A DNA stretch of 64,000 bases from assembly GCF_009914755.1 (NCBI RefSeq), contig NC_060926.1; one strand, 5' to 3'. The first letter of the stretch is position 1. Each line of letters opens with the position of its first letter. The stretch comes from the human T2T-CHM13v2.0 reference genome, Homo sapiens. The notes beneath the pieces are model-generated. The model had not been told where the DNA came from. It saw only the letters and a program-made list of their open reading frames with translations, and made no database searches. Positions 4,408 to 62,285 of the stretch are shown piece after piece. Made by a program: the position numbers and the translations under genes.

Positions 4408-4995
4408 CAATAGACAGAAGAACAAAAGCCACATGATGATCTCAACAGACATAGAATAAATATGCAAGGAATGTTTGACAACATTCACACTCTTTCGCAA
4501 TAGAAATACTCAACAAACTGGGAATAGAAGGGAAATTCCTCAAAATGATGAAGGAAAACTACAACAAACCCCCTGTTGACATTGTACATATGGCGAGAGA
4601 CTGGATGCTTTCTTCCTGAGATCAGAAAAAAGCAAAGGTATCATCTTTTGCCACTTCTATTCTGCATCATACTGGAAGTTCTACTCAGTTCCATTGGGCA
4701 AAATAGATAAATAAAGTCACCCAGATTGGAAATAAAAAGAAGTAAAACTATCTCTACAGATGTCATGATCTTGCATACCGGAAATTCTCAGGGACTTACT
4801 AAAAATCTATTAGAACCAATAAACAAGTTTGGCAAAGTTGCAGAATACAGGATCAACATACAAAAATCAATTTTATTTCTACACATTTGCAATGACTAAC
4901 AAAATATAATTAAGAAAATATATACAATAGTATCAAAAATAATAAAACATTTAGAAATAAATTTGACAAAAGCAGCCCCAAACTTACATTCCTAA
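4165..4995 (+). mobile_element. Old L1M ORF2 segment (host element, resumes at ~11430)
   Basis: CCAAAACCAGGCAG..AAAAGAAAACTACA..GATGCAGAATTCTCAAC; GCAGAATACAGGATCAACATACAAAAATCAAT. Confidence 0.85.
4355..4402. repeat. (GA)n microsatellite
   Basis: Read directly. Confidence 0.9.
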
Positions 4996-6028: not shown

Positions 6029-6398
<370 letters not shown>

Positions 6399-28697: not shown

Positions 28698-29510
28698 TTT
28701 CCTAAAGCAGACACACACATGGCCAAGAAGCAAGTGAAAAAAGTGCTCAACATCACTAATCATTAGAGAAATGCAAGTCAAAACCACAATCAGATACCAT
28801 CTCATACGAGTCAGAAAGGCTATTATAAAAAAGTCAAAAAATAACAGATGCTGGCGAGATTGTGGAGAAAAGGGAACTGGAACACTTATACATTGCTGGT
28901 GGGAATGTAAATGAATTTAGCCAATATGGAAAGCAGGTTTGCAACTCCTCAAAGAACTTAAAACAGAATTATCATTTGACCCATCAATTCCATTCTTGGG
29001 TATATACCCAAAGGAATATAAATCATCCTATCATAAAGACACATGTATGCATACATTCATCACAGCACTATTCACAATAGCCAACATATGGAGTCAACCT
29101 AAATGCCCATCAAAGGTAAACTGGATAAAGAAAATGTGGTACATATACACCATGGAATACAATGCAGCCATAAAAAAGAATAACTCATGTCCTTGCAGCA
29201 ACATGGATGGAGCTGGAGGCCATTATACTAAGCAAACTAATGCAGGAACAGAAACCAAATACCACATGTTCTTACTTACAAATAATATACATGGACACAA
29301 AGAAGGGAACAACAGACACCAGGACCTACTTTAGGATGGAAGTCGGGAGGAGGGTGAAGATCAAAAAATTACCAATCAAATACTATGCTTATTATCTGGG
29401 TTATGAAATCTTCTGTATACCAGACCCCCATGATATGTTATCTTCCTATATAATAAACCTCACATGTATGCCTGAACCTAAAATAAAAGTATAAAAAGAA
29501 AACAAAAACA
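28698..29510 (+). mobile_element. 5'-truncated L1PA15/16-like element
   Basis: CAACATCACTAATCATTAGAGAAATGCAA; ORF remnant WIKKMWYIYTMEY; 3' UTR ending CCTGAACCTAAAATAAAAGT. Confidence 0.92.
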
Positions 29511-36054: not shown

Positions 36055-36388
<334 letters not shown>

Positions 36389-52824: not shown

Positions 52825-54569
52825 ATTTGCAGTACATACCCCCATATATTTCATTGCTTATTGTTATGTTTCTCCCACAAGACTCTCCGAAAGACCAGAC
52901 ATTGTGTGTTCTGTTTGTTGCCGTGATCCTATCACCCAGAATAGTACCTGGCATCTAGTATGTGTTCATGAAATATTTGTTGAGGAAAATTTTTAAAGGA
53001 GAGAGGGGAAGGATGAAGGAAGAAAGAAAAGAATTCCCATTTATCTGAGTATGTCAGTAAACCCATGGGGCAGCCTGAGAGATGACTATTTTCATGAAGA
53101 ATAAGGAATCTTTTGAGACTAATCCTAAGGGAAAGAAAAAGCCTGAGATTGAGTCAATAAGTGAATTCTGAGTCATCAAGAGGAAGGTTGGGTCTAATTA
53201 TAGCATGGTGACGATTACTAGGCTTTGTCTTCTGGTTCAGTCCTCACTGGACTCAGATCTAAATCTTTTAAGAAACAGAGGGGTTATAAGTAAAATATGA
53301 AAAAGCTTTTTAATTAAAGTTCTGTACAACTTTGGGAGCTACATGCATTGCTGGAGCACTGAGGGAGATGGACATCTTTGACCATGCATTACAGGGCAGC
53401 CTTCGTGTCTTGAAGGCTAAAGTGTACTGATGGAGTCCTCAACAGAAACTATAGTATCACACTGTGCCCCAGGGAGCTTAAATTTCCCAGAGGACATTGG
53501 AGACCTGCAGAGACTATGGGGCCCAGTAGAGAAACAGCAATAACTAGAAAAACTGCAGTGACAGACAAAGTAAACTCTGTACCCAAGCAGAGCAGACTTT
53601 TTTCTTGAGAACTAGTAACTTACTCCCCAGGGACTTCTAGAAATTCATAGGAGGGCAATAGTTTAGTGAGCCAAAGGTACGATGTTCTGTAGGTCTATCT
53701 ACAAGCCTGTGAAATTTCAGTTTATATTACTATGATCTCTTTTGCACCCTGAAACTTGTGAGTTCCAGAAAAATTCAGCATATATGTATATCATATGCTT
53801 TAGGTAATGACATTTGAGATATCAATCTTCCAAATATTGAACATGACTTAGCCTTTTCCTGCCACCTGAGGATTTTTATTAGCAGTATTAAGCATAGTGC
53901 TGTCTACTGTTGATGCCCTCAAGCCTTCTAAACTATATTATGGTATTCACCCCTGAACTAAATAGCCCTATTGGGCACTTGTGTCTGCTTGGTTCATTTG
54001 TGTCAGAATAAGATATTTAAAATTAGAACTGCTAGTGGCTACTTTTCATTGCTGTCAATGTACCTGTTTCTAAAAATGGCATATTTCTTTCCATTTTTTT
54101 CTTTCCATTCTGCCATGGGAAACCAAATCTCAAGCTATAATTCATGTTGAGTTACCAAATACATGGAAGTCAAACAATATTCCAGAAAATGCTATAGAGA
54201 ATAAAAGATGAGTAAGATGCCACGTCTGTCCTCTAGGACAAGTGGATGAGCACCAGAGGGGCTCTCATCTGAGAAAAATACTTATGCTTTAGTCCATGAG
54301 TTTTGCCACATCCATTGTGCCTAGGCAAAGGCTGGTTATACATGGTTCATGATTCCTGGCTGTAGTTCAGATGAGATGCAGTTACTGAGAGACAGCTTCA
54401 GAAGAGTAAGATTTTGCTGTGTGTATACACTTTTTGACACATACACACACGCATGCACACACAGGGTAAATTCCCAAATCAACAGTGTAGTAAGAGAATT
54501 ATTATTATAAAGCATTCTAGATAAAGCAGCTTGATCAGGAAATCCACATCGTTATGCTGGCTTGCAATA

Positions 54570-54978: not shown

Positions 54979-55034
54979 ATTATGAAATGCATTATTTTTA
55001 TTCAACATTATGAAATGCATTATTTTTATTCAAC
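54979..55034. repeat. Perfect 28-bp tandem duplication
   Basis: ATTATGAAATGCATTATTTTTATTCAAC x2. Confidence 0.95.
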
Positions 55035-56309
55035 CTATTTGTATTTTTATTCTTCATTCTTTCCTAAAGAAGAAATTAAGGCAATGATTTTAATAACTTG
55101 GGTTCTGTTACTTAACTGAAGTTTTATCATACCCAAATTAAATACATATCTCCTCCTTTCTATCCCCACAGGTACCAAATAACTATGACATATTTCTTTA
55201 GTTGAAAATACATTCATAAAAGGTGTGGGTATAAAATATCGAAGCTAATTTGTATAGAATTTTGGTCAGATTCAATAAATATTGGCTGGTTGGCAATCCC
55301 CTGATAGAGGCACAATGATATAGAAACGAGATGAGGCCCTGCCCTGCCTGGTAAAGCTTATAGCTTAATCCCAGGCTCTCCTTGGGATTAAGAAAGTCTT
55401 GCAAGGAAGTTAGAGGCAAAGAGGGAGATGAAGAGAGTTACATTCATAACCAAATTTAAATGAGTAGAAAAATATATATTTTGGCCAAGAACATTGACTA
55501 CTTTATGGGGAAATTGTTTGCTGCTCAGTTAATATGACTCTTGTGGGTGCGAGAAGTAAAGGAGAACTCAGAAATGAAAGGAAAGCAGTGGTGTGGCTGC
55601 ACGGTCCTCTCAGGCCAAACCCATTCTCAGAAGCTGGGATGAGTCAGGTGCGAAGAGAATGCAAGTTGCTCCAAGCCCATACCTCCTTTTTAAAACAAGG
55701 AAGGTAAAATGTTCTTAGGGTGCTAGACCCTGGCATCTTGAAAAGGAGTCATTTAACATAGTTCAAAGGCAAAGAAAGCCCTGGCCTAACCCTTCGTCTA
55801 TTCCTGCTAAGATGGGGAAGATAGGGCATGAACAGGAGGCAGTAGACATGAAGGTACTAACTGATATGAGCCCAGGCAAGAAGGAAGGGCGACCAAAATG
55901 GTATGTTTGACATCGAACCCAAAGTACTTCTGGCACTAAGGCAGAAACTAAGTAGAGTTTCTCGAAAACTCAAAAACTATCTATTATTTGTCTCTCTCTC
56001 TCTAGAGAAATGGAAGCTTCCAAAAAGAGCATTCCAGAGACAGTCTCTGGCAGCCAGTGAACTATGCTCAGTAGGGCAGAGCTATGACTCTGTGTCCAAG
56101 ATCACCAGCGTCTCATTTTAACGAAGAACGGATATGCAAAAAAAACCTTTGACTATCTTTGTTTTCCTTGTTATACACAGAGTTTGGAGGGAGCATATGT
56201 ATACATATGCCTGCTTTCTAAGATGTTCCCATGCTCAACAAAGCTACAATGTGACACGTGCTGCAGTAGCACACATGGTGAACATGCTGCCCAGTCTAGG
56301 GGTTCAGTC

Positions 56310-57197
56310 TCCTTTCTTTTTTAATTTTTATTTTATGGTGAGGGGTATATGTGCAGGTTTATTACATAGGTAAATTGTGTGTCACAGGGGTTTGGTGTAC
56401 AGATAATTTCATCACCCATGTGATAAGCATAGTACCTGATAGGTAGTTTTTTGGTCCTCTCCTTCCTCTCACCCTCTACCCTCAAGGAGGCTCTCAAGTC
56501 TGATATTCACACTCTATGTGTTGTTTTCTTTCTCAGCATGTGCTATAAAATGGAATTACCTATTGACAGGAGTGTTTTTTGTTTAACATCTCCCACCACA
56601 TTGTAAGTTCCATGCAGGTGGAAATAATTTCTGCTTTACTAGTCGTTGAACACCCAGCTTCTAATTTAATGCCTGGCTTATAACAGGCTTTCAAAAATAT
56701 TTTTGGAATAAATTAATTAAATGAGACACTGTAGGTGGCAGGGTCTATTCCAATGTCTAAATTATGTTTTTACAGGATCAACAGTGTCTGTTGTTCCCTT
56801 CTTTGAGTCCATATGTTCTCTTTGTTTAGCGCTGTCTTAGATGTGAAAAAATGCAGTATTTGGTTTTCTGTTCTTGTGTTAGTTTTCTAAGGATAATGTC
56901 CTCCAAATCCATCAATGTTGCTGAAAAGGACATGATCTTGGTTTTTTATGGCTATGTAGTATTCCATGGTGTATCTGCACCACATTTTTTTTATCTAGTC
57001 TACCCTTGGTGGGCATTTAGATTGATTGCATGTCTTTGCTATTGTGGACAGTGCTGCGACAAACATACGTGTGTATGGGTCTTTATGGTAGAATAATTTA
57101 TATTCCTTTGGGTATATACCAGTCATTCTAACCAGCATGAGATGCTATCTTATTGTGGTTTTCATTTGCATTTTTATTTGTTTACTGATGTTCAGCA
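56310..57197 (-). mobile_element. 5'-truncated L1PA15/16-like element, interrupted at 56490-56781 and internally deleted near 57120
   Basis: GGGGTATATGTGCAGGTTT..GGGGTTTGGTGTACAGATAATTTCATCACC; CACCCTCTACCCTCAAGGAGG resumes as CAGTGTCTGTTGTTCCCTTC at 56782. Confidence 0.92.
56490..56774 (-). repeat. Inverted copy of 59193-59478 (left arm, inserted copy)
   Basis: Manual alignment to the reverse complement of 59193-59478 gives 12 substitutions and one 1-bp indel. Confidence 0.97.
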
Positions 57198-57199
57198 AA

Positions 57200-57335
57200 C
57201 TGAACTGTGAGGCTCAACTCTGCCGCACATATTCTATCTGGCTATGGAAAAATCACTTCATAAATCTATGCTTCCATTTTTTTTTTTTTTATTTCTAGGA
57301 TGAGAAGGATGGACTAGAGGCTATCTAAAATACAT
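57200..57335 (+). mobile_element. MIR3-like fragment
   Basis: GGAAAAATCACTTC..ATGAGAAGGATGGACTAGA. Confidence 0.55.
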
Positions 57336-58366
57336 TATCTCATATACTTCAATTCTCGATATGAGAGCTCCCCACCCAATTTCTACAGCCCGCACCCTCA
57401 GGTCAGCAGCCGGGGGTTTTAATTCAGTTCTTGTGGCTGTGTTCACTGTGTCACCAATGGATATGAGGACCCAGTGCCAGGCTTGGTGTCATCTAAACTT
57501 ACACTTCCCAAGAGACCCAGTTTATTGCTATTTCTTGTAAAGCCATTTTTGCAATTTCTATCTTAATTTGATCTCATTTCAATTAATGTTTCAAGTGTAA
57601 TTTCATTAGACAATGTCAATCACTTAATAAAAATCAAGATCTACTGCAGTTATTGTTTTTCTTCCTTCTGTTTCATAATTTCCTCGTTAAAATCACCATT
57701 TGTGTGGCAAGGTTTGCCATTTGCATAGTTTTGATCCTCATTGTTTCCAAAACTGGTATCTTTTGCCCTTAAAATTGTTATCTTCACGCATGCAGATTTC
57801 CCTGCTTTCCCTTTTAAATATTATTTGGTTAAGGTGGTTATTGCCTTTGTCATGTAAAACTTTACAGAACTGTCATCTTCTGTCTTGACTTTATTTTTCC
57901 CTTCTTATTCAATTTCCCCCATTTTCCCAGAACACTTTTTTTTTTTTTGAAGTACAGAGATGTAATTGTTTCTCTTCACATTATGTGCTTGACAAAAGAA
58001 TTATTTTCTGTTTTGCTACCTCCCCTCCTCCACCAGAAAATATTTTCTTTATCTTCCCAGGAGCCACCCACATCTGTGTCCACCTGAACCTGACTCTGAG
58101 CATAGGGATGTGTGATTTCCACATACCATTTACACAAACTTCCATGTGGATGCTGGAGTGGAGGGAGGTTGTAAAAAGTAATTTGGAGGTTGGAAATCAC
58201 TGTAATAATCTTGTTCTTTTCTTTGATTTGTAAGCAGACACACAAGAGAAGCCTGGTACACTCTCCTCTTCTAAATGTATGCCTTGAACCTGAGGCCTCA
58301 AGGATAAATCTGAGATAGCAAGAATAAAACAAGAATAAAAGCTGTTCACCAGCTTGCCTAGAATGG

Positions 58367-58453
58367 CAGGGTGACCAACTCATCCTGGTGTGTCTGCAAC
58401 TTTCCCAGGAGAAAGTCCTGCAACATGGGGAAACTCTCATTCCCAGGCAAACC
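58367..58453. mobile_element. MER81 partial copy
   Basis: CAGGGTGACCAACTCATCCTGG..GAAAGTCCTGC..CCCAGGCAAACC. Confidence 0.75.
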
Positions 58454-58802
58454 TCTTATATGGCACAGAAACCTCCTCTTCTCTATTGGATCTGGATGAC
58501 CAATGACCTCTTTCAGCTGTGTGCCTTCAGCGAAATGTTTCTTCTTTGTCTGACTAAGCAACATGACTGTCCTCAATTTGTGTATGTGTGTATATAAAGG
58601 GGGTGACTGGGAGTGGGTATGAGCAATGGGAGAGGATCAGAGGTTGGGAAGCCAGAAGAGAGAAAAAAATCCTCACGATAATCTGAGAGATATGTAAACT
58701 CACAGGGATATCTGAACTTCTCTGTCTTCATTATCGTTATGTCAGGGTCCTCTGGTCATTACCTGCCTCAGCATGGAATGCACAGAGATAAACATCTTGA
58801 TC

Positions 58803-58935
58803 ATTACATATATATATATTTAACATATATTAAATTACATATATTATATATTAATAACATATTATAGATTATAATTTATATATTTTAATATTTATATTAA
58901 TAACAAAGTTTTATTTATATATATATTATATATAT
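58803..58935. repeat. AT-rich low-complexity (TA)n-derived tract
   Basis: Read directly. Confidence 0.85.
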
Positions 58936-59104
58936 GACTTGGTTATTAAAAGTCCCAAGACAAGCATTTGCAGTGGAAATTCAGTAAGGGAAGATTTAAC
59001 AGTCTGAGAGGTGGATGGCAAGACATGCTTCATGGGGGAGGTTGCTGCTATGTGGGTGTTATTTGGATAGACATAGAGAAGTAGGATCTAGGTGACTCTC
59101 CTGC

Positions 59105-59775
59105 CTGCTTATGCATTTACTAGTTCAATAGATAGCTGTTGAGTACATATATGGCATGATAGATACTCTGTTGAGTGCACAGTGTAAGATGATGTAAAAA
59201 CATAATTTAGACATTGGAATAGACCCTGCCACCTACAGTGTCTCATTTAATTAATTTAATCCAAAAATATTTTTGAATACCTGTAATGAGCCAGGCATTA
59301 AATTAGGTGCTGGGTGTTCAACTACTAGTAAAGCAGAAATTATTTCCACCTGCATGGAACTTACAGTGTGGTGGGAGATGTTAAACAAAAAACACTCCTG
59401 TCAATAGGTAATTCCATTTTATAGCACATGCTGAGAAATAAAACAACATATAGAGTGATGAATATCAGACTTGAGGGCACATGATTTCCTTCGGGAATTC
59501 AGCAGAGGCTCTCTCTGGGGAAAAGACGCTTGAGCTGAGACCTGAGTGATTAAGAAGAGGCAATTAGATGTCAGAGTGAAGAACATCCCAGGAGGTTGTC
59601 ACAGACCATGTGGTGGCCCCAACACAGAAATGAATGTGATGTGACAGGGATCTGGCCAAAGATTATTGAGCAAAGGGAAAGTGGTTCAGGGTGGAGTGGG
59701 AAGGGTGGGCAGGAGCACATCATGCTGGGTGCTGTGGCTCATGATAAGGGATCTGGATTTTATTCAAAGTGTAAT
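59105..59775 (-). mobile_element. Two abutting L2 pieces (junction ~59243); the second resumes at ~62850
   Basis: CATTTAATTAATTTAATCCAAAAATATTTTTGAATACC..GCCAGGCATT; TTGAGCTGAGACCTGAGTG; GGATTTTATTCAAAGTGTAAT. Confidence 0.8.
59193..59478 (+). repeat. Inverted repeat right arm (probable donor copy)
   Basis: Continuous with flanking L2 sequence on both sides, unlike the left arm. Confidence 0.95.
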
Positions 59776-59784
59776 CTATTTTCA

Positions 59785-62285
59785 AAAAAATAAACTTTTA
59801 TTTTAGAGCAGTTTTAGATTTAGAGAATTATTGAGAAGATAGTACAGAGTTTCCATATCCCCCACATCCAGTTTCCCTGTTATTTATATCTTACATTAGT
59901 ACAGTCCATTTGTCACAATTAATAAATCAATATGAATACATTACTACTCACTAAAGTCCACACTTTATTTAGATTTCCTCAGTTTTCTCCTAATGTCCTT
60001 TTTCTCTTTTATTATCCCACTAAGGATGCCACATTAGAATTAGTCATCGTGTCTCATTAGGCTCTCTTCATTGTGACCTCCTCAGATTTTCCTTGTTTTT
60101 TTATAACCTTAAAAGTTTTGAGGATTGCTGGTTAGATATTTTTTAAAATGTCCCCCAGTTTGGGATTTGTCTGATGTTTTTCTTATGATTGGACCGGGGT
60201 CACGGGTCATTGTGAGGAACACACAGAAGCAAAGTGTCCTTCTCATAATGTCATGTCAAGGGTACATATTATCAATATGACTTATCACTGTGCATATTGA
60301 CCTTGATCATCCAGCTTGAGGAACTATTTGTCAGGTCTTCCTACTGTAAAATTATTCTTTTTTCCCTTGGCATACTGTTTAGGGGGAAGTTCCTATGGGC
60401 AGCCCACATTTAAGGAGTGGAAAGTTAACCTCTACCCCCTTAAACACAGAAGATGTACATAAATTATTTGGGATTGTTATGTATGGAAGATTTGTCTACC
60501 CTTTCTCATTTATTTATATATTCAATTATTTATTTATATCAGCATGAATTAATGGATATTCATTTTATACTTTGGGTTATGATTAAACACTATTTTATTT
60601 GTTTTGTTGCTCGGTTGCTCAAGCTCTGGCCATTGAGGGCTCCTTCACTTGGTTCTTACGTCTCTTTGACATGCCCCTGACTGTGCGATTCATTTGTTGG
60701 TTTTTGAGCATTTTGTTACCTTCTGGCGCTACAAGATTTTCTAGTTTTAGCTTACGTATTTTCTGCCCCAGTCCTAGAATCCATTATTTCTTCAAGAAAC
60801 CCTGTTTCTTTTTGTTGGAGAATGGTGTTAGAAACCAAGATCTGGGTTGCAGATATACCCATTGTGTTGTTGCTTCAGACCTGCTTCAGCTAACACAGCA
60901 GAGTCACATGTGTGTGCCTGCTAACCTGTGTTACATAGACATGTGTTTAGATATAAACACAGATCGATACATATTTCCATATGTGATTATTTGTGTCTAT
61001 ATTAAGCTAAACATGAGTTTATACTGATGTCTCCAACTCTAATCCACTGCCCATGGATCTACCCACATGAAACTTATAATGTGATGAGAGAGACAGAGAG
61101 AGATGATCTTAGGTTGGTGCAAAGGTAATTGCTGTTTTTGCCATAACTTTTGCACCAACCTAATAAATAAACACTCTGATAAATAGATAATTCCAACTCT
61201 AATCCATGACCCATGGACTATTCTAACCTTCTACTCTTGCTTGTCTGTAACCTTGCACTGTAACAGTGAGAATCAGTCTCCCACTATTCACCATTCATTC
61301 AACTAATTGTTGAATTCCATATACTTGTATATGGTTTCGGAGTTGTTAACCCATAGCCCCATGGAAACAACTTATTATCTACAGTATGGTGATTTCTTCC
61401 TTTTGCCTGTAGTCTTATAGACTCCACTAATTTCCAAAGTTACTTAGGTCAGTACTTCATTTCCACATCCCTTTAGGGTGGTTGTTTCTTACATTTGCAA
61501 TACATTTATATTATTTTTTATAATATTCTGCATTTCATCCTGAAATCCTCTGATCTTCTACATAATGTTTACAAATGTATATACATTAAAATTTTTATTT
61601 GTTCTATAAAGTTCTGTAGGTTTTAACAAATGCTTAATGTCTGGTATTCACTGCAAGAGTATCATGCAAAAGAGTTTCATGCCCTAAAGCATCTTCTGTG
61701 CCTCACCTATCCAACCCTGCCTTTGCCCCCACACTCTTAAATAATCTGGGTTATCATTAATCTCTTTATTACCTTTACTGTTCTGTCTTCTCTAGGGTGT
61801 CATATAATCAAAATTCTATGCTATACAGCTTTTTCAAATGGTTTCTTTTACTTAGCAATATGCACTGAAGATTTATCCATATCTTTTCCTGGCTTGAGAG
61901 CCCATCTCTTTTTATTCCTGAATAATATCCCATTTTCTGGATGTGCCACAGTTTATTTATCCATTTGTCCACTGAAGTACATCTTGGTTGCTTCCTGGTT
62001 TTGGTGAGTATAAAGAAACCTGCTATAAATATTTGTACACAGCTTTTTGTGTAGAAATTGGCTTTCAAATCTGTCAGGCAAATACCTAGGAACATATATA
62101 CTTGATGGTATGGTAAGACTATGTTTACTTTTATAAGAAACTATAAAGCTGTCTTCCAAAATGTCTGTTTTATTTTGTCTTTCCACCAGCAATAAAGGAG
62201 AGTTCTGTTGCTCTGCATCCTTCTTAGCAGTTGGTGTTGTCACCTGTTTCAATTCTAGTCATTCAAATGAATGTGTAGTAGGGTT
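59785..62285 (-). mobile_element. L1MC1/2-like long 3' UTR plus ORF2 end
   Basis: AAACTTTTATTTTAGAGCAGTTTTAGATTTA..GATAGTACAGAGTTTCCATAT; ORF remnant DKWINKLWHIQKMGYY. Confidence 0.88.
61109..61163. mobile_element. MADE1 (Hsmar1-derived MITE), internally deleted to 55 bp
   Basis: TTAGGTTGGTGCAAAGGT ... ACTTTTGCACCAACCTAA followed by TA. Confidence 0.93.

What the first reader, a model, noticed from the sequence alone, without database searches (positions are those of the whole stretch)
56490..59478. Hidden ~285-bp inverted duplication: local genomic DNA copied backwards into an L1 3' UTR
Seen: 56490-56774 is the reverse complement of 59193-59478 (12 substitutions and one 1-bp indel by manual alignment, ~95% identity). 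The left copy splits an L1PA15/16 3' UTR between CTCAAGGAGG and CAGTGTCTG. It has no poly(A) or TSD, a possible GCCC microhomology at one junction and a 7-nt filler (GGATCAA) at the other. The copied DNA spans the junction of two separate L2 pieces. Established: L2 activity predates L1PA16, so a repeat masker would show an implausible L2-inside-L1PA nesting and hide the event. Inference: a locally templated insertion (synthesis-dependent end joining or fork template switching) much younger than either repeat.
Basis: partly seen in the sequence, partly recalled or inferred. Interest (0 to 1): 0.8.

Follow-up and report, generated by a model that had tools for sequence, protein, structure and literature searches.

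The report
Old local inverted duplication inside L1
A 285-base piece of nearby DNA was copied backwards into an old L1 repeat 2.4 kb away, a real but ordinary example of the commonest kind of small inverted duplication in human genomes.

Summary
Window 56490-56774 is the reverse complement of 59193-59478, with 12 substitutions and one 1-bp indel. These are the only two copies found in the whole T2T genome.

The left copy is the insertion. In 29 of 29 other L1 copies the two flanks are contiguous.

The right copy is the source. It lies inside a much older dispersed repeat that runs unbroken across the duplication boundary.

The junctions show a 4-nt microhomology (GCCC) on one side and a 7-nt filler (GGATCAA) on the other. 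There is no poly(A), no target-site duplication and no loss of L1 bases.

This matches the published 'inverted duplication' class of human structural variants:
- duplicated stretches under 1 kb inserted within 5 kb of the alternate copy (PMC4617611);
- median length 284 bp, with 1-15 bp microhomology and a suggested replicative origin (PMC12350158).

Not confirmed here: the names L1PA15/16 and L2, and the 'two L2 pieces' claim. The exact pathway (fork template switch versus break repair) and the date remain inferred. No primate orthologues were available.

The parts
56313..56489 (-). Proximal piece of an old L1 3' end. The element lies on the minus strand, and its A-tail reads as a T-rich run at about 56313-56335.
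   Evidence: It aligns to the in-window L1 at 29501-29325 and to 29 genomic L1 copies up to the breakpoint.
56490..56493 (.). Junction microhomology. It reads GCTC now. Both the source (59478-59475) and the majority of other L1 copies have GCCC here.
   Evidence: These four bases can be assigned to either the L1 or the copy.
56490..56774 (+). Inserted inverted copy, 285 bp.
   Evidence: It is the reverse complement of 59193-59478, with 12 substitutions and 1 indel. It matches only positions 286-540 of the repeat-family profile, plus about 30 bp of the source's flank.
56775..56781 (.). 7-nt filler GGATCAA at the right junction.
   Evidence: It is absent from both the source and the other L1 copies. 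No convincing local template was found.
56782..57200 (-). Remainder of the same L1, collinear and in the same orientation. It resumes at CA GTGTCTG with no base lost or duplicated.
   Evidence: 39 of 39 other scored genomic matches were at 81-84% identity.
59193..59478 (-). Source segment of the duplication.
   Evidence: It is the only other copy in the genome and is embedded in a contiguous older repeat.
59223..59769 (-). Ancient dispersed repeat (L2-like 3' end; the name is recalled, not tested) that contains most of the source and extends 291 bp beyond the duplication boundary.
   Evidence: A 16-mer at 59530-59545 occurs 95 times in the genome against 0 for the reversed control. The profile matches 59769-59223 in one piece. 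7 of 29 loci align across 59478/59479.

Best explanation
This is an old, probably fixed, local inverted duplication. A 285-bp stretch at 59193-59478 was copied at the DNA level and inserted in reverse orientation 2,418 bp to its left, into the 3' end of a pre-existing L1. The stretch comprises the last ~255 bp of an ancient L2-like repeat plus ~30 bp of its flank.

Most likely course (inferred):
1. A nascent or broken top-strand 3' end ending in ...GGAGGCCC at 56493 left its template.
2. It annealed through the 4 nt GCCC to GGGC on the top strand at 59475-59478, for example on the lagging-strand template of the same fork after leading-strand stalling.
3. It copied leftwards to 59193.
4. It came off, acquired 7 nt (GGATCAA), and resumed on the original template at the very next L1 base.

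This is a FoSTeS/MMBIR-type replicative template switch. It produces the 'inverted duplication' class seen as polymorphic structural variants in human populations.

Shown: the duplication, its direction (right to left), its uniqueness, the junction anatomy, the absence of retrotransposition marks, and that it is younger than the host L1.

Inferred: the replicative pathway and the date.

I put about 0.9 on the event as described. Given the event, I put about 0.55 on a replicative switch and about 0.3 on break repair.
For: - Identity and coordinates.
- Only two copies in 3.1 Gb.
- The L1 flanks are contiguous in 29 of 29 other copies, with the majority reading AGG-CCCCA-GTGTCTG. The insertion is therefore clean, and GCCC is shared between target and source.
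- The source is part of a dispersed repeat that continues beyond the duplicated part. A 16-mer outside the duplicate occurs 95 times against 0 for the control. 7 of 29 loci align across the boundary in one hit. A profile from 28 of 29 loci matches 59769-59223 in one piece, but matches the left copy only from profile position 286.
- The left copy also carries the 30 bp beyond that repeat's 3' end (56745-56774 = 59222-59193). It is therefore a copy of this locus, not of the repeat family.
- Relative ages: the copies are 95.8% alike, the L1 is 81-84% like its closest relatives, and the inserted repeat has a median 55.5% identity to its relatives.
- Fit to the known class. In PMC4617611 (passages read), 54% of 229 validated inversion sites were inverted duplications, nearly all under 1 kb and inserted within 5 kb. 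In PMC12350158 (passages read), 277 inverted duplications had a median of 284 bp, mostly with 1-15 bp microhomology, and a replicative origin was suggested.
Against: - Nothing in the sequence separates a fork template switch from break repair with templated synthesis. Only one junction has microhomology, and the other has a 7-nt filler of unknown origin.
- The microhomology depends on the majority state of other L1 copies. The 5-mer at that spot varies among the 29 copies.
- The date is soft. 7 of the 12 differences sit within 50 columns (P=0.03). This could mean gene conversion homogenised the rest (event older than it looks) or error-prone copying (event younger than it looks).
- No orthologous primate sequence or second human assembly could be examined.
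- The profile used for direction was seeded with the source itself, so its full-length match to the source is partly by construction.
Confidence: 0.6

Rival explanations
1. Double-strand break repair rather than a fork error. A break in the L1 was repaired by end joining after one 3' end primed on the nearby sequence by microhomology and was extended (synthesis-dependent or polymerase-theta-type templated insertion). Alternatively, a free local DNA fragment was captured. In both cases the filler was added at the second junction.
For: A 4-nt microhomology at one junction and a 7-nt filler at the other are typical of end-joining products. Templated inverted insertions at breaks are documented in yeast, but mostly at 5-34 bp (PMC11724301; abstract in the search listing only).
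Against: The insert is long for templated end joining. No target base was lost, whereas breaks are usually resected. The population class of the same size and spacing is attributed by its authors to replication.
Confidence: 0.28
2. Reverse-transcriptase origin. The piece entered either as an RNA-derived insertion or by template jumping while the L1 itself integrated.
For: The host is an L1, and the insert sits about 180 bp from its 3' end.
Against: - There is no poly(A), no target-site duplication and no A/T-rich cleavage site at the junction.
- The L1 resumes at exactly the next base.
- The copies differ by 4.2%, while the L1 differs by 16-19% from its closest relatives.
- The source lies 2.4 kb away, and the copy includes non-repeat flank.
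Confidence: 0.03
3. An inversion of the 2.4-kb spacer with staggered breaks left inverted duplicates at its ends, or the arms later flipped the spacer.
For: Inverted repeats flanking a segment are the footprint of that mechanism (recalled from the Drosophila literature; not read here).
Against: The two L1 halves on either side of the left copy are collinear and in the same orientation, and they abut at adjacent L1 positions. The spacer is therefore in its ancestral orientation relative to the left flank.
Confidence: 0.02
4. Not a real event: two independent copies of the same old repeat, or an assembly artefact.
For: Most of the segment belongs to a dispersed repeat family.
Against: Family members are about 55% alike, whereas these two are 95.8% alike and also share 30 bp of flank. 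An artefactual duplicate would be near-identical, not 4% diverged with an indel.
Confidence: 0.01

Closest known systems
Inverted duplications ('Inverted Dup' / inv-dup) of the 1000 Genomes structural-variant maps (Sudmant et al. 2015, PMC4617611; Schloissnig et al. 2025, PMC12350158)
   Same: Size: 285 bp against a published median of 284 bp and 'under 1 kbp'. Spacing: 2.4 kb against 'within 5 kbp'. It also shares the inverted orientation, the short microhomology (4 nt against 1-15 bp) and the absence of retrotransposition marks.
   Different: Those variants are polymorphic and young. This one is about 4% diverged and presumably fixed. Its polymorphism status was not testable here.
Non-tandem duplication, opposite strand (Frith & Khan 2018, PMC5829575)
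   Same: Both are localized duplications inserted nearby in the opposite orientation. That survey counted 21 of 166 supported rearrangements in this class, and the authors discuss template switching (MMBIR/FoSTeS) as a possible cause of complex rearrangements in general.
   Different: Those were found as differences between a person's reads and the reference. This one is in the reference itself.
Short-range template switches in great apes (Walker et al. 2021, PMC7954356)
   Same: Reverse-complement copying of nearby sequence during replication creates inverted repeats that become fixed in ape lineages.
   Different: Those events span tens to hundreds of nucleotides around the switch point and usually replace sequence. 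Here 285 nt were copied from 2.4-3 kb away and added as a pure insertion.
Nested-transposon chronology (TinT, PMC3014933)
   Same: [quoted passage not shown] An old repeat inside a younger L1 therefore flags a non-transposition event.
   Different: TinT treats such cases as absent or noise. It is not a method for finding duplications.

Membership tests
Inverted-duplication SV class (PMC4617611, PMC12350158) | Duplicated stretch under 1 kb | tested here: met
   285 bp.
Inverted-duplication SV class (PMC4617611, PMC12350158) | Inserted in inverted orientation within about 5 kb of the other copy | tested here: met
   2,418 bp lie between the copies, which are in reverse-complement orientation.
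Inverted-duplication SV class (PMC4617611, PMC12350158) | Junctions with 1-15 bp microhomology rather than long homology | tested here: met
   The left junction has GCCC, 4 nt shared by the source and the L1 majority. The right junction has a 7-nt filler and no homology.
Inverted-duplication SV class (PMC4617611, PMC12350158) | Not produced by retrotransposition | tested here: met
   There is no poly(A) and no target-site duplication, and the copy includes flank beyond the repeat's 3' end.
Inverted-duplication SV class (PMC4617611, PMC12350158) | Segregating in human populations | not testable with these tools
   Only one human assembly is held. The 4.2% divergence suggests the event is fixed.
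FoSTeS/MMBIR replicative template switch | Microhomology at the switch point and a template in physical proximity | tested here: met
   4 nt of microhomology, with the template 2.4-3 kb away on the same strand.
FoSTeS/MMBIR replicative template switch | Occurrence during replication, or several serial switches | not testable with these tools
   The 7-nt filler may be a second short switch, but no template for it was found nearby.
LINE-1 (host element) | Sequence similarity to the genome's L1 copies across the breakpoint | tested here: met
   The first look gave 8841 candidates. 39 of 39 other scored matches were at 81-84% identity, and 29 of 29 fetched copies align on both sides of the breakpoint.
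LINE-1 (host element) | Subfamily L1PA15/16 | not testable with these tools
   No repeat library is held. Pfam gave 0 families for the 3 minus-strand ORF fragments at E up to 0.01.
L2 (inserted and source repeat) | Member of an ancient, highly diverged dispersed family | tested here: met
   The 16-mer occurs 95 times against 0 for the control. 28 of 29 loci join one profile. Median identity to the source is 55.5%. The name L2 is recalled, not tested.
L2 (inserted and source repeat) | The copied DNA spans the junction of two separate L2 pieces | tested here: inconclusive
   The profile of the family's last 541 positions ends at 59223 and finds nothing in 58950-59225 even at E up to 100. A piece from another part of L2 would not be seen by this profile.
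L1-mediated (TPRT) insertion | Poly(A) tail and target-site duplication | tested here: not met
   Neither is present at 56490 or at 56774-56781.

The most novel reading that the evidence does not exclude
The new copy may keep a footprint of error-prone copying. Among the 9 differences that the repeat family can polarise, 7 are derived in the inserted copy and 2 in the source. The 12 differences include two adjacent double substitutions and a cluster of 7 within 50 columns. If orthologues showed that these changes were present from the first appearance of the insert, this would be a preserved record, millions of years old, of mutagenic synthesis during a template switch. Old-repeat-inside-younger-repeat nestings could then be mined genome-wide as an archive of such events.
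Probability: 0.12. Interest if true: 0.4.

Novelty: new member of a known kind. Interest (0 to 1): 0.15.

Why it matters
On its own it matters little. There is no gene or annotated element at either copy, and the class is the commonest inversion-type variant in humans. It is a clean, fully resolved old example: source, target, microhomology, filler and empty-site state are all recoverable. It shows that such events persist and can be recognised long after fixation through a reversed nesting order of repeats. That may be useful for a genome-wide count of fixed template-switch insertions, and as a caution for repeat chronologies based on nesting.

Tried and rejected
- **Filler origin.** I looked for k-mers of 8-14 nt overlapping GGATCAA elsewhere in the window. 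A 13-mer recurs at 4846 and an 11-mer at 54478. The contexts show no further similarity. I treat them as chance.
- **Longer right end.** Past 56774 the local alignment goes on for 14 more columns with 4 mismatches and a gap. Error-prone synthesis at the switch remains possible.
- **Pfam on the L1 ORF fragments.** Three minus-strand fragments gave 0 families, so no protein-level name was obtained for the L1.
- **Whole-genome DNA search for relatives of the source repeat.** The query 59380-59640 returned only the two local copies. Its relatives are too diverged for that tool. The 16-mer pattern search worked instead.
- **In-window nhmmer.** Using the source as query gave only two weak extra hits.
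- **Second L2 piece.** Not detected.
- **Clustering tests.** Adjacent pairs gave P=0.07, and 7 differences in 50 columns gave P=0.03. These are suggestive only.
- **Polarisation.** The 7:2 split has a one-sided binomial of about 0.09 by my own arithmetic. It is biased towards the source, because the family alignment was seeded with the source.

Full report
**Observation.** The window holds exactly one inverted pair in 55000-61000. A local alignment places it at 56490-56774 against 59478-59193, with 12 substitutions (6 transitions, 6 transversions) and one 1-bp indel in 286 columns. It is the best of 34 non-self pairs in the window; the next best are ~300-bp pairs at 91% identity or lower. A search of the whole 3.1-Gb assembly with the 285 bases returned 2 candidates, both scored: the copy itself and the right copy at 95%. 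That tool skips very common words, so absence elsewhere is strong but not absolute.

**The left copy is an insertion into an L1.**
- The flanks 56313-56489 and 56782-57200 align to another L1 3' end in the window (29501-28744). That L1 has only 5 bases where this one has the 292-bp block.
- A genome search with 56782-57120 gave 8841 first-look candidates. Of these, 40 were scored: the window itself and 39 others at 81-84% identity.
- I fetched 29 of them (L004-L032) and aligned about 115 bases around the breakpoint. In 29 of 29 the two flanks are contiguous, with the majority reading AGG-CCCCA-GTGTCTG. One copy, L020, has a 6-nt insertion of its own there.
- Read against this, the L1 in the window runs ...AAGGAG G-C-T-C | insert | C-A-GTGTCTG. 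No L1 base is lost or duplicated.
- The four bases at 56490-56493 (GCTC now; GCCC in the source and in the L1 majority) belong equally to target and source. This is a 4-nt microhomology.
- The seven bases GGATCAA (56775-56781) belong to neither.
- Neither end of the insert has an A- or T-run, and no flanking direct repeat exceeds 4 nt.
- The L1 lies on the minus strand, and its tail reads as a T-rich run from 56313. Minus-strand ORF fragments look like the end of ORF2 to my eye (recall), but Pfam gave 0 families for the 3 fragments. The subfamily name could not be tested.

**The right copy is the source.**
- A 16-mer at 59530-59545 lies outside the duplicated part. It occurs 95 times in the genome against 0 for the reversed control, so that flank belongs to a dispersed repeat.
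- Of 29 fetched loci carrying the 16-mer, 10 gave a significant single-sequence nhmmer hit to the source region. 7 of the 29 align in one piece across the duplication boundary at 59478/59479 and end between 59221 and 59312. Of the other three hits, two stop at 59505 and one stops at 59475.
- A profile built from the hits recruited 28 of 29 loci. It matches 59769-59223 in one piece (positions 2-540, E=3.5e-94). It matches the left copy only over positions 286-540 (56491-56744, E=3.1e-37).
- The profile was seeded by the source, so its full-length match is partly by construction. The boundary-crossing alignments of other loci are the independent part of the evidence.
- The left copy is therefore an internal-to-3' fragment of that element plus the 30 bp that follow it at this locus (56745-56774 = 59222-59193). 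This is a DNA copy of this place, not a new insertion of the repeat family.
The profile finds nothing in 58950-59225 even at E up to 100. It covers only the family's last 541 positions, however.
- The name L2 rests on my recollection of that family's 3' end.

**Relative ages.**
- The two copies are 95.8% alike.
- The host L1 is 81-84% like its closest relatives.
- The source repeat has a median 55.5% identity to 31 aligned segments of its family, with a range of 48.8-72.3%.
- So a fragment of the oldest family sits inside a younger element, and the duplication is younger than both. This reversed nesting contradicts the rule stated in PMC3014933 that older inactive elements are not inserted into younger ones (passage read).
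- From 4.2% divergence and recalled primate divergences, I place the event roughly between the orangutan and macaque splits. This is soft, for two reasons.
- First, 7 of the 12 differences fall within 50 columns (P=0.03), and there are two adjacent double substitutions (P=0.07). Gene conversion of the rest would make the event older than it looks. Error-prone copying would make it younger.
- Second, polarising with the family alignment gives 7 differences derived in the left copy, 2 derived in the right and 3 uninformative. This is suggestive of a mutagenic copy, but it is not significant and it is biased towards the source.

**Mechanism.**
- Geometry: the inserted top strand equals the bottom strand of the source. 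A top-strand 3' end ending in GCCC at 56493 must therefore have paired with GGGC on the top strand at 59475-59478 and been extended leftwards to 59193.
- That is a switch of a nascent strand to the opposite template strand about 3 kb ahead. It fits a stalled leading strand switching to the lagging-strand template of the same fork (FoSTeS/MMBIR; named in PMC5829575, passage read).
- The clean return to the next L1 base favours a replicative detour over a resected break.
- End joining after templated extension at a break, or capture of a local fragment, gives the same junction types and cannot be excluded.
- Retrotransposition, an inversion with staggered breaks, independent repeat copies and assembly error are each contradicted by the data (see the rival explanations).

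**Comparison with what is known.**
- Sudmant et al. [quoted passage not shown]
- Schloissnig et al. 2025 report inverted duplications as the most common inversion class: 277 events with a median of 284 bp, most with 1-15 bp microhomology, suggesting a replicative origin (PMC12350158; passages read).
- Frith & Khan 2018 list 21 opposite-strand non-tandem duplications among 166 supported local rearrangements (PMC5829575; passages read).
- Walker et al. 2021 describe fixed short-range template switches in great apes at a smaller scale (PMC7954356; passages read).
- The present case is 285 bp, 2.4 kb away, with 4 nt of microhomology, and sits in the middle of that class.
- I did not find, and did not search exhaustively for, a catalogue of old fixed examples.

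**Verdict.** The event is an ordinary member of a known kind, and no gene or annotated element is involved. Interest is low.

Noticed in passing
window 57120-57137: The host L1 lacks roughly 150-200 bp here relative to the in-window L1 at 29017-28857. This is an internal deletion about 340 bp to the right of the insertion. Whether it belongs to the same event is unknown.
   Followed up: no
window 56659-56708 / 59308-59259: 7 of the 12 differences between the copies fall in this 50-column stretch, including two adjacent double substitutions (P=0.03 and P=0.07). Possible explanations are partial gene conversion elsewhere in the arms or an error-prone patch.
   Followed up: partly
window 4846-4858: The 13-mer TACAGGATCAACA, which spans the copy end, the filler and the L1 restart, recurs here. 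By recall this lies in another L1 fragment. It is probably chance.
   Followed up: partly
window 28735-29501 and 612-1154: Two further old L1 3' fragments, 77-81% identical to the host L1.
   Followed up: partly
window 52826-53018 and seven weaker places (43902, 14935, 25457, 55982, 3249, 52186, 31186): Further matches of the ad hoc profile of the source's repeat family. These are other fragments of the same ancient family.
   Followed up: no
window 6029-6326 and 36092-36388: A pair of ~300-bp repeats in opposite orientation at 90.7% identity. They also match several other ~300-bp repeats in the window at 78-85%. By size and copy number they are Alu-like (recall).
   Followed up: no
window 58920-58945: A short AT-rich simple repeat lies between the two arms and overlaps the masked stretch 58799-58940.
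   Followed up: no
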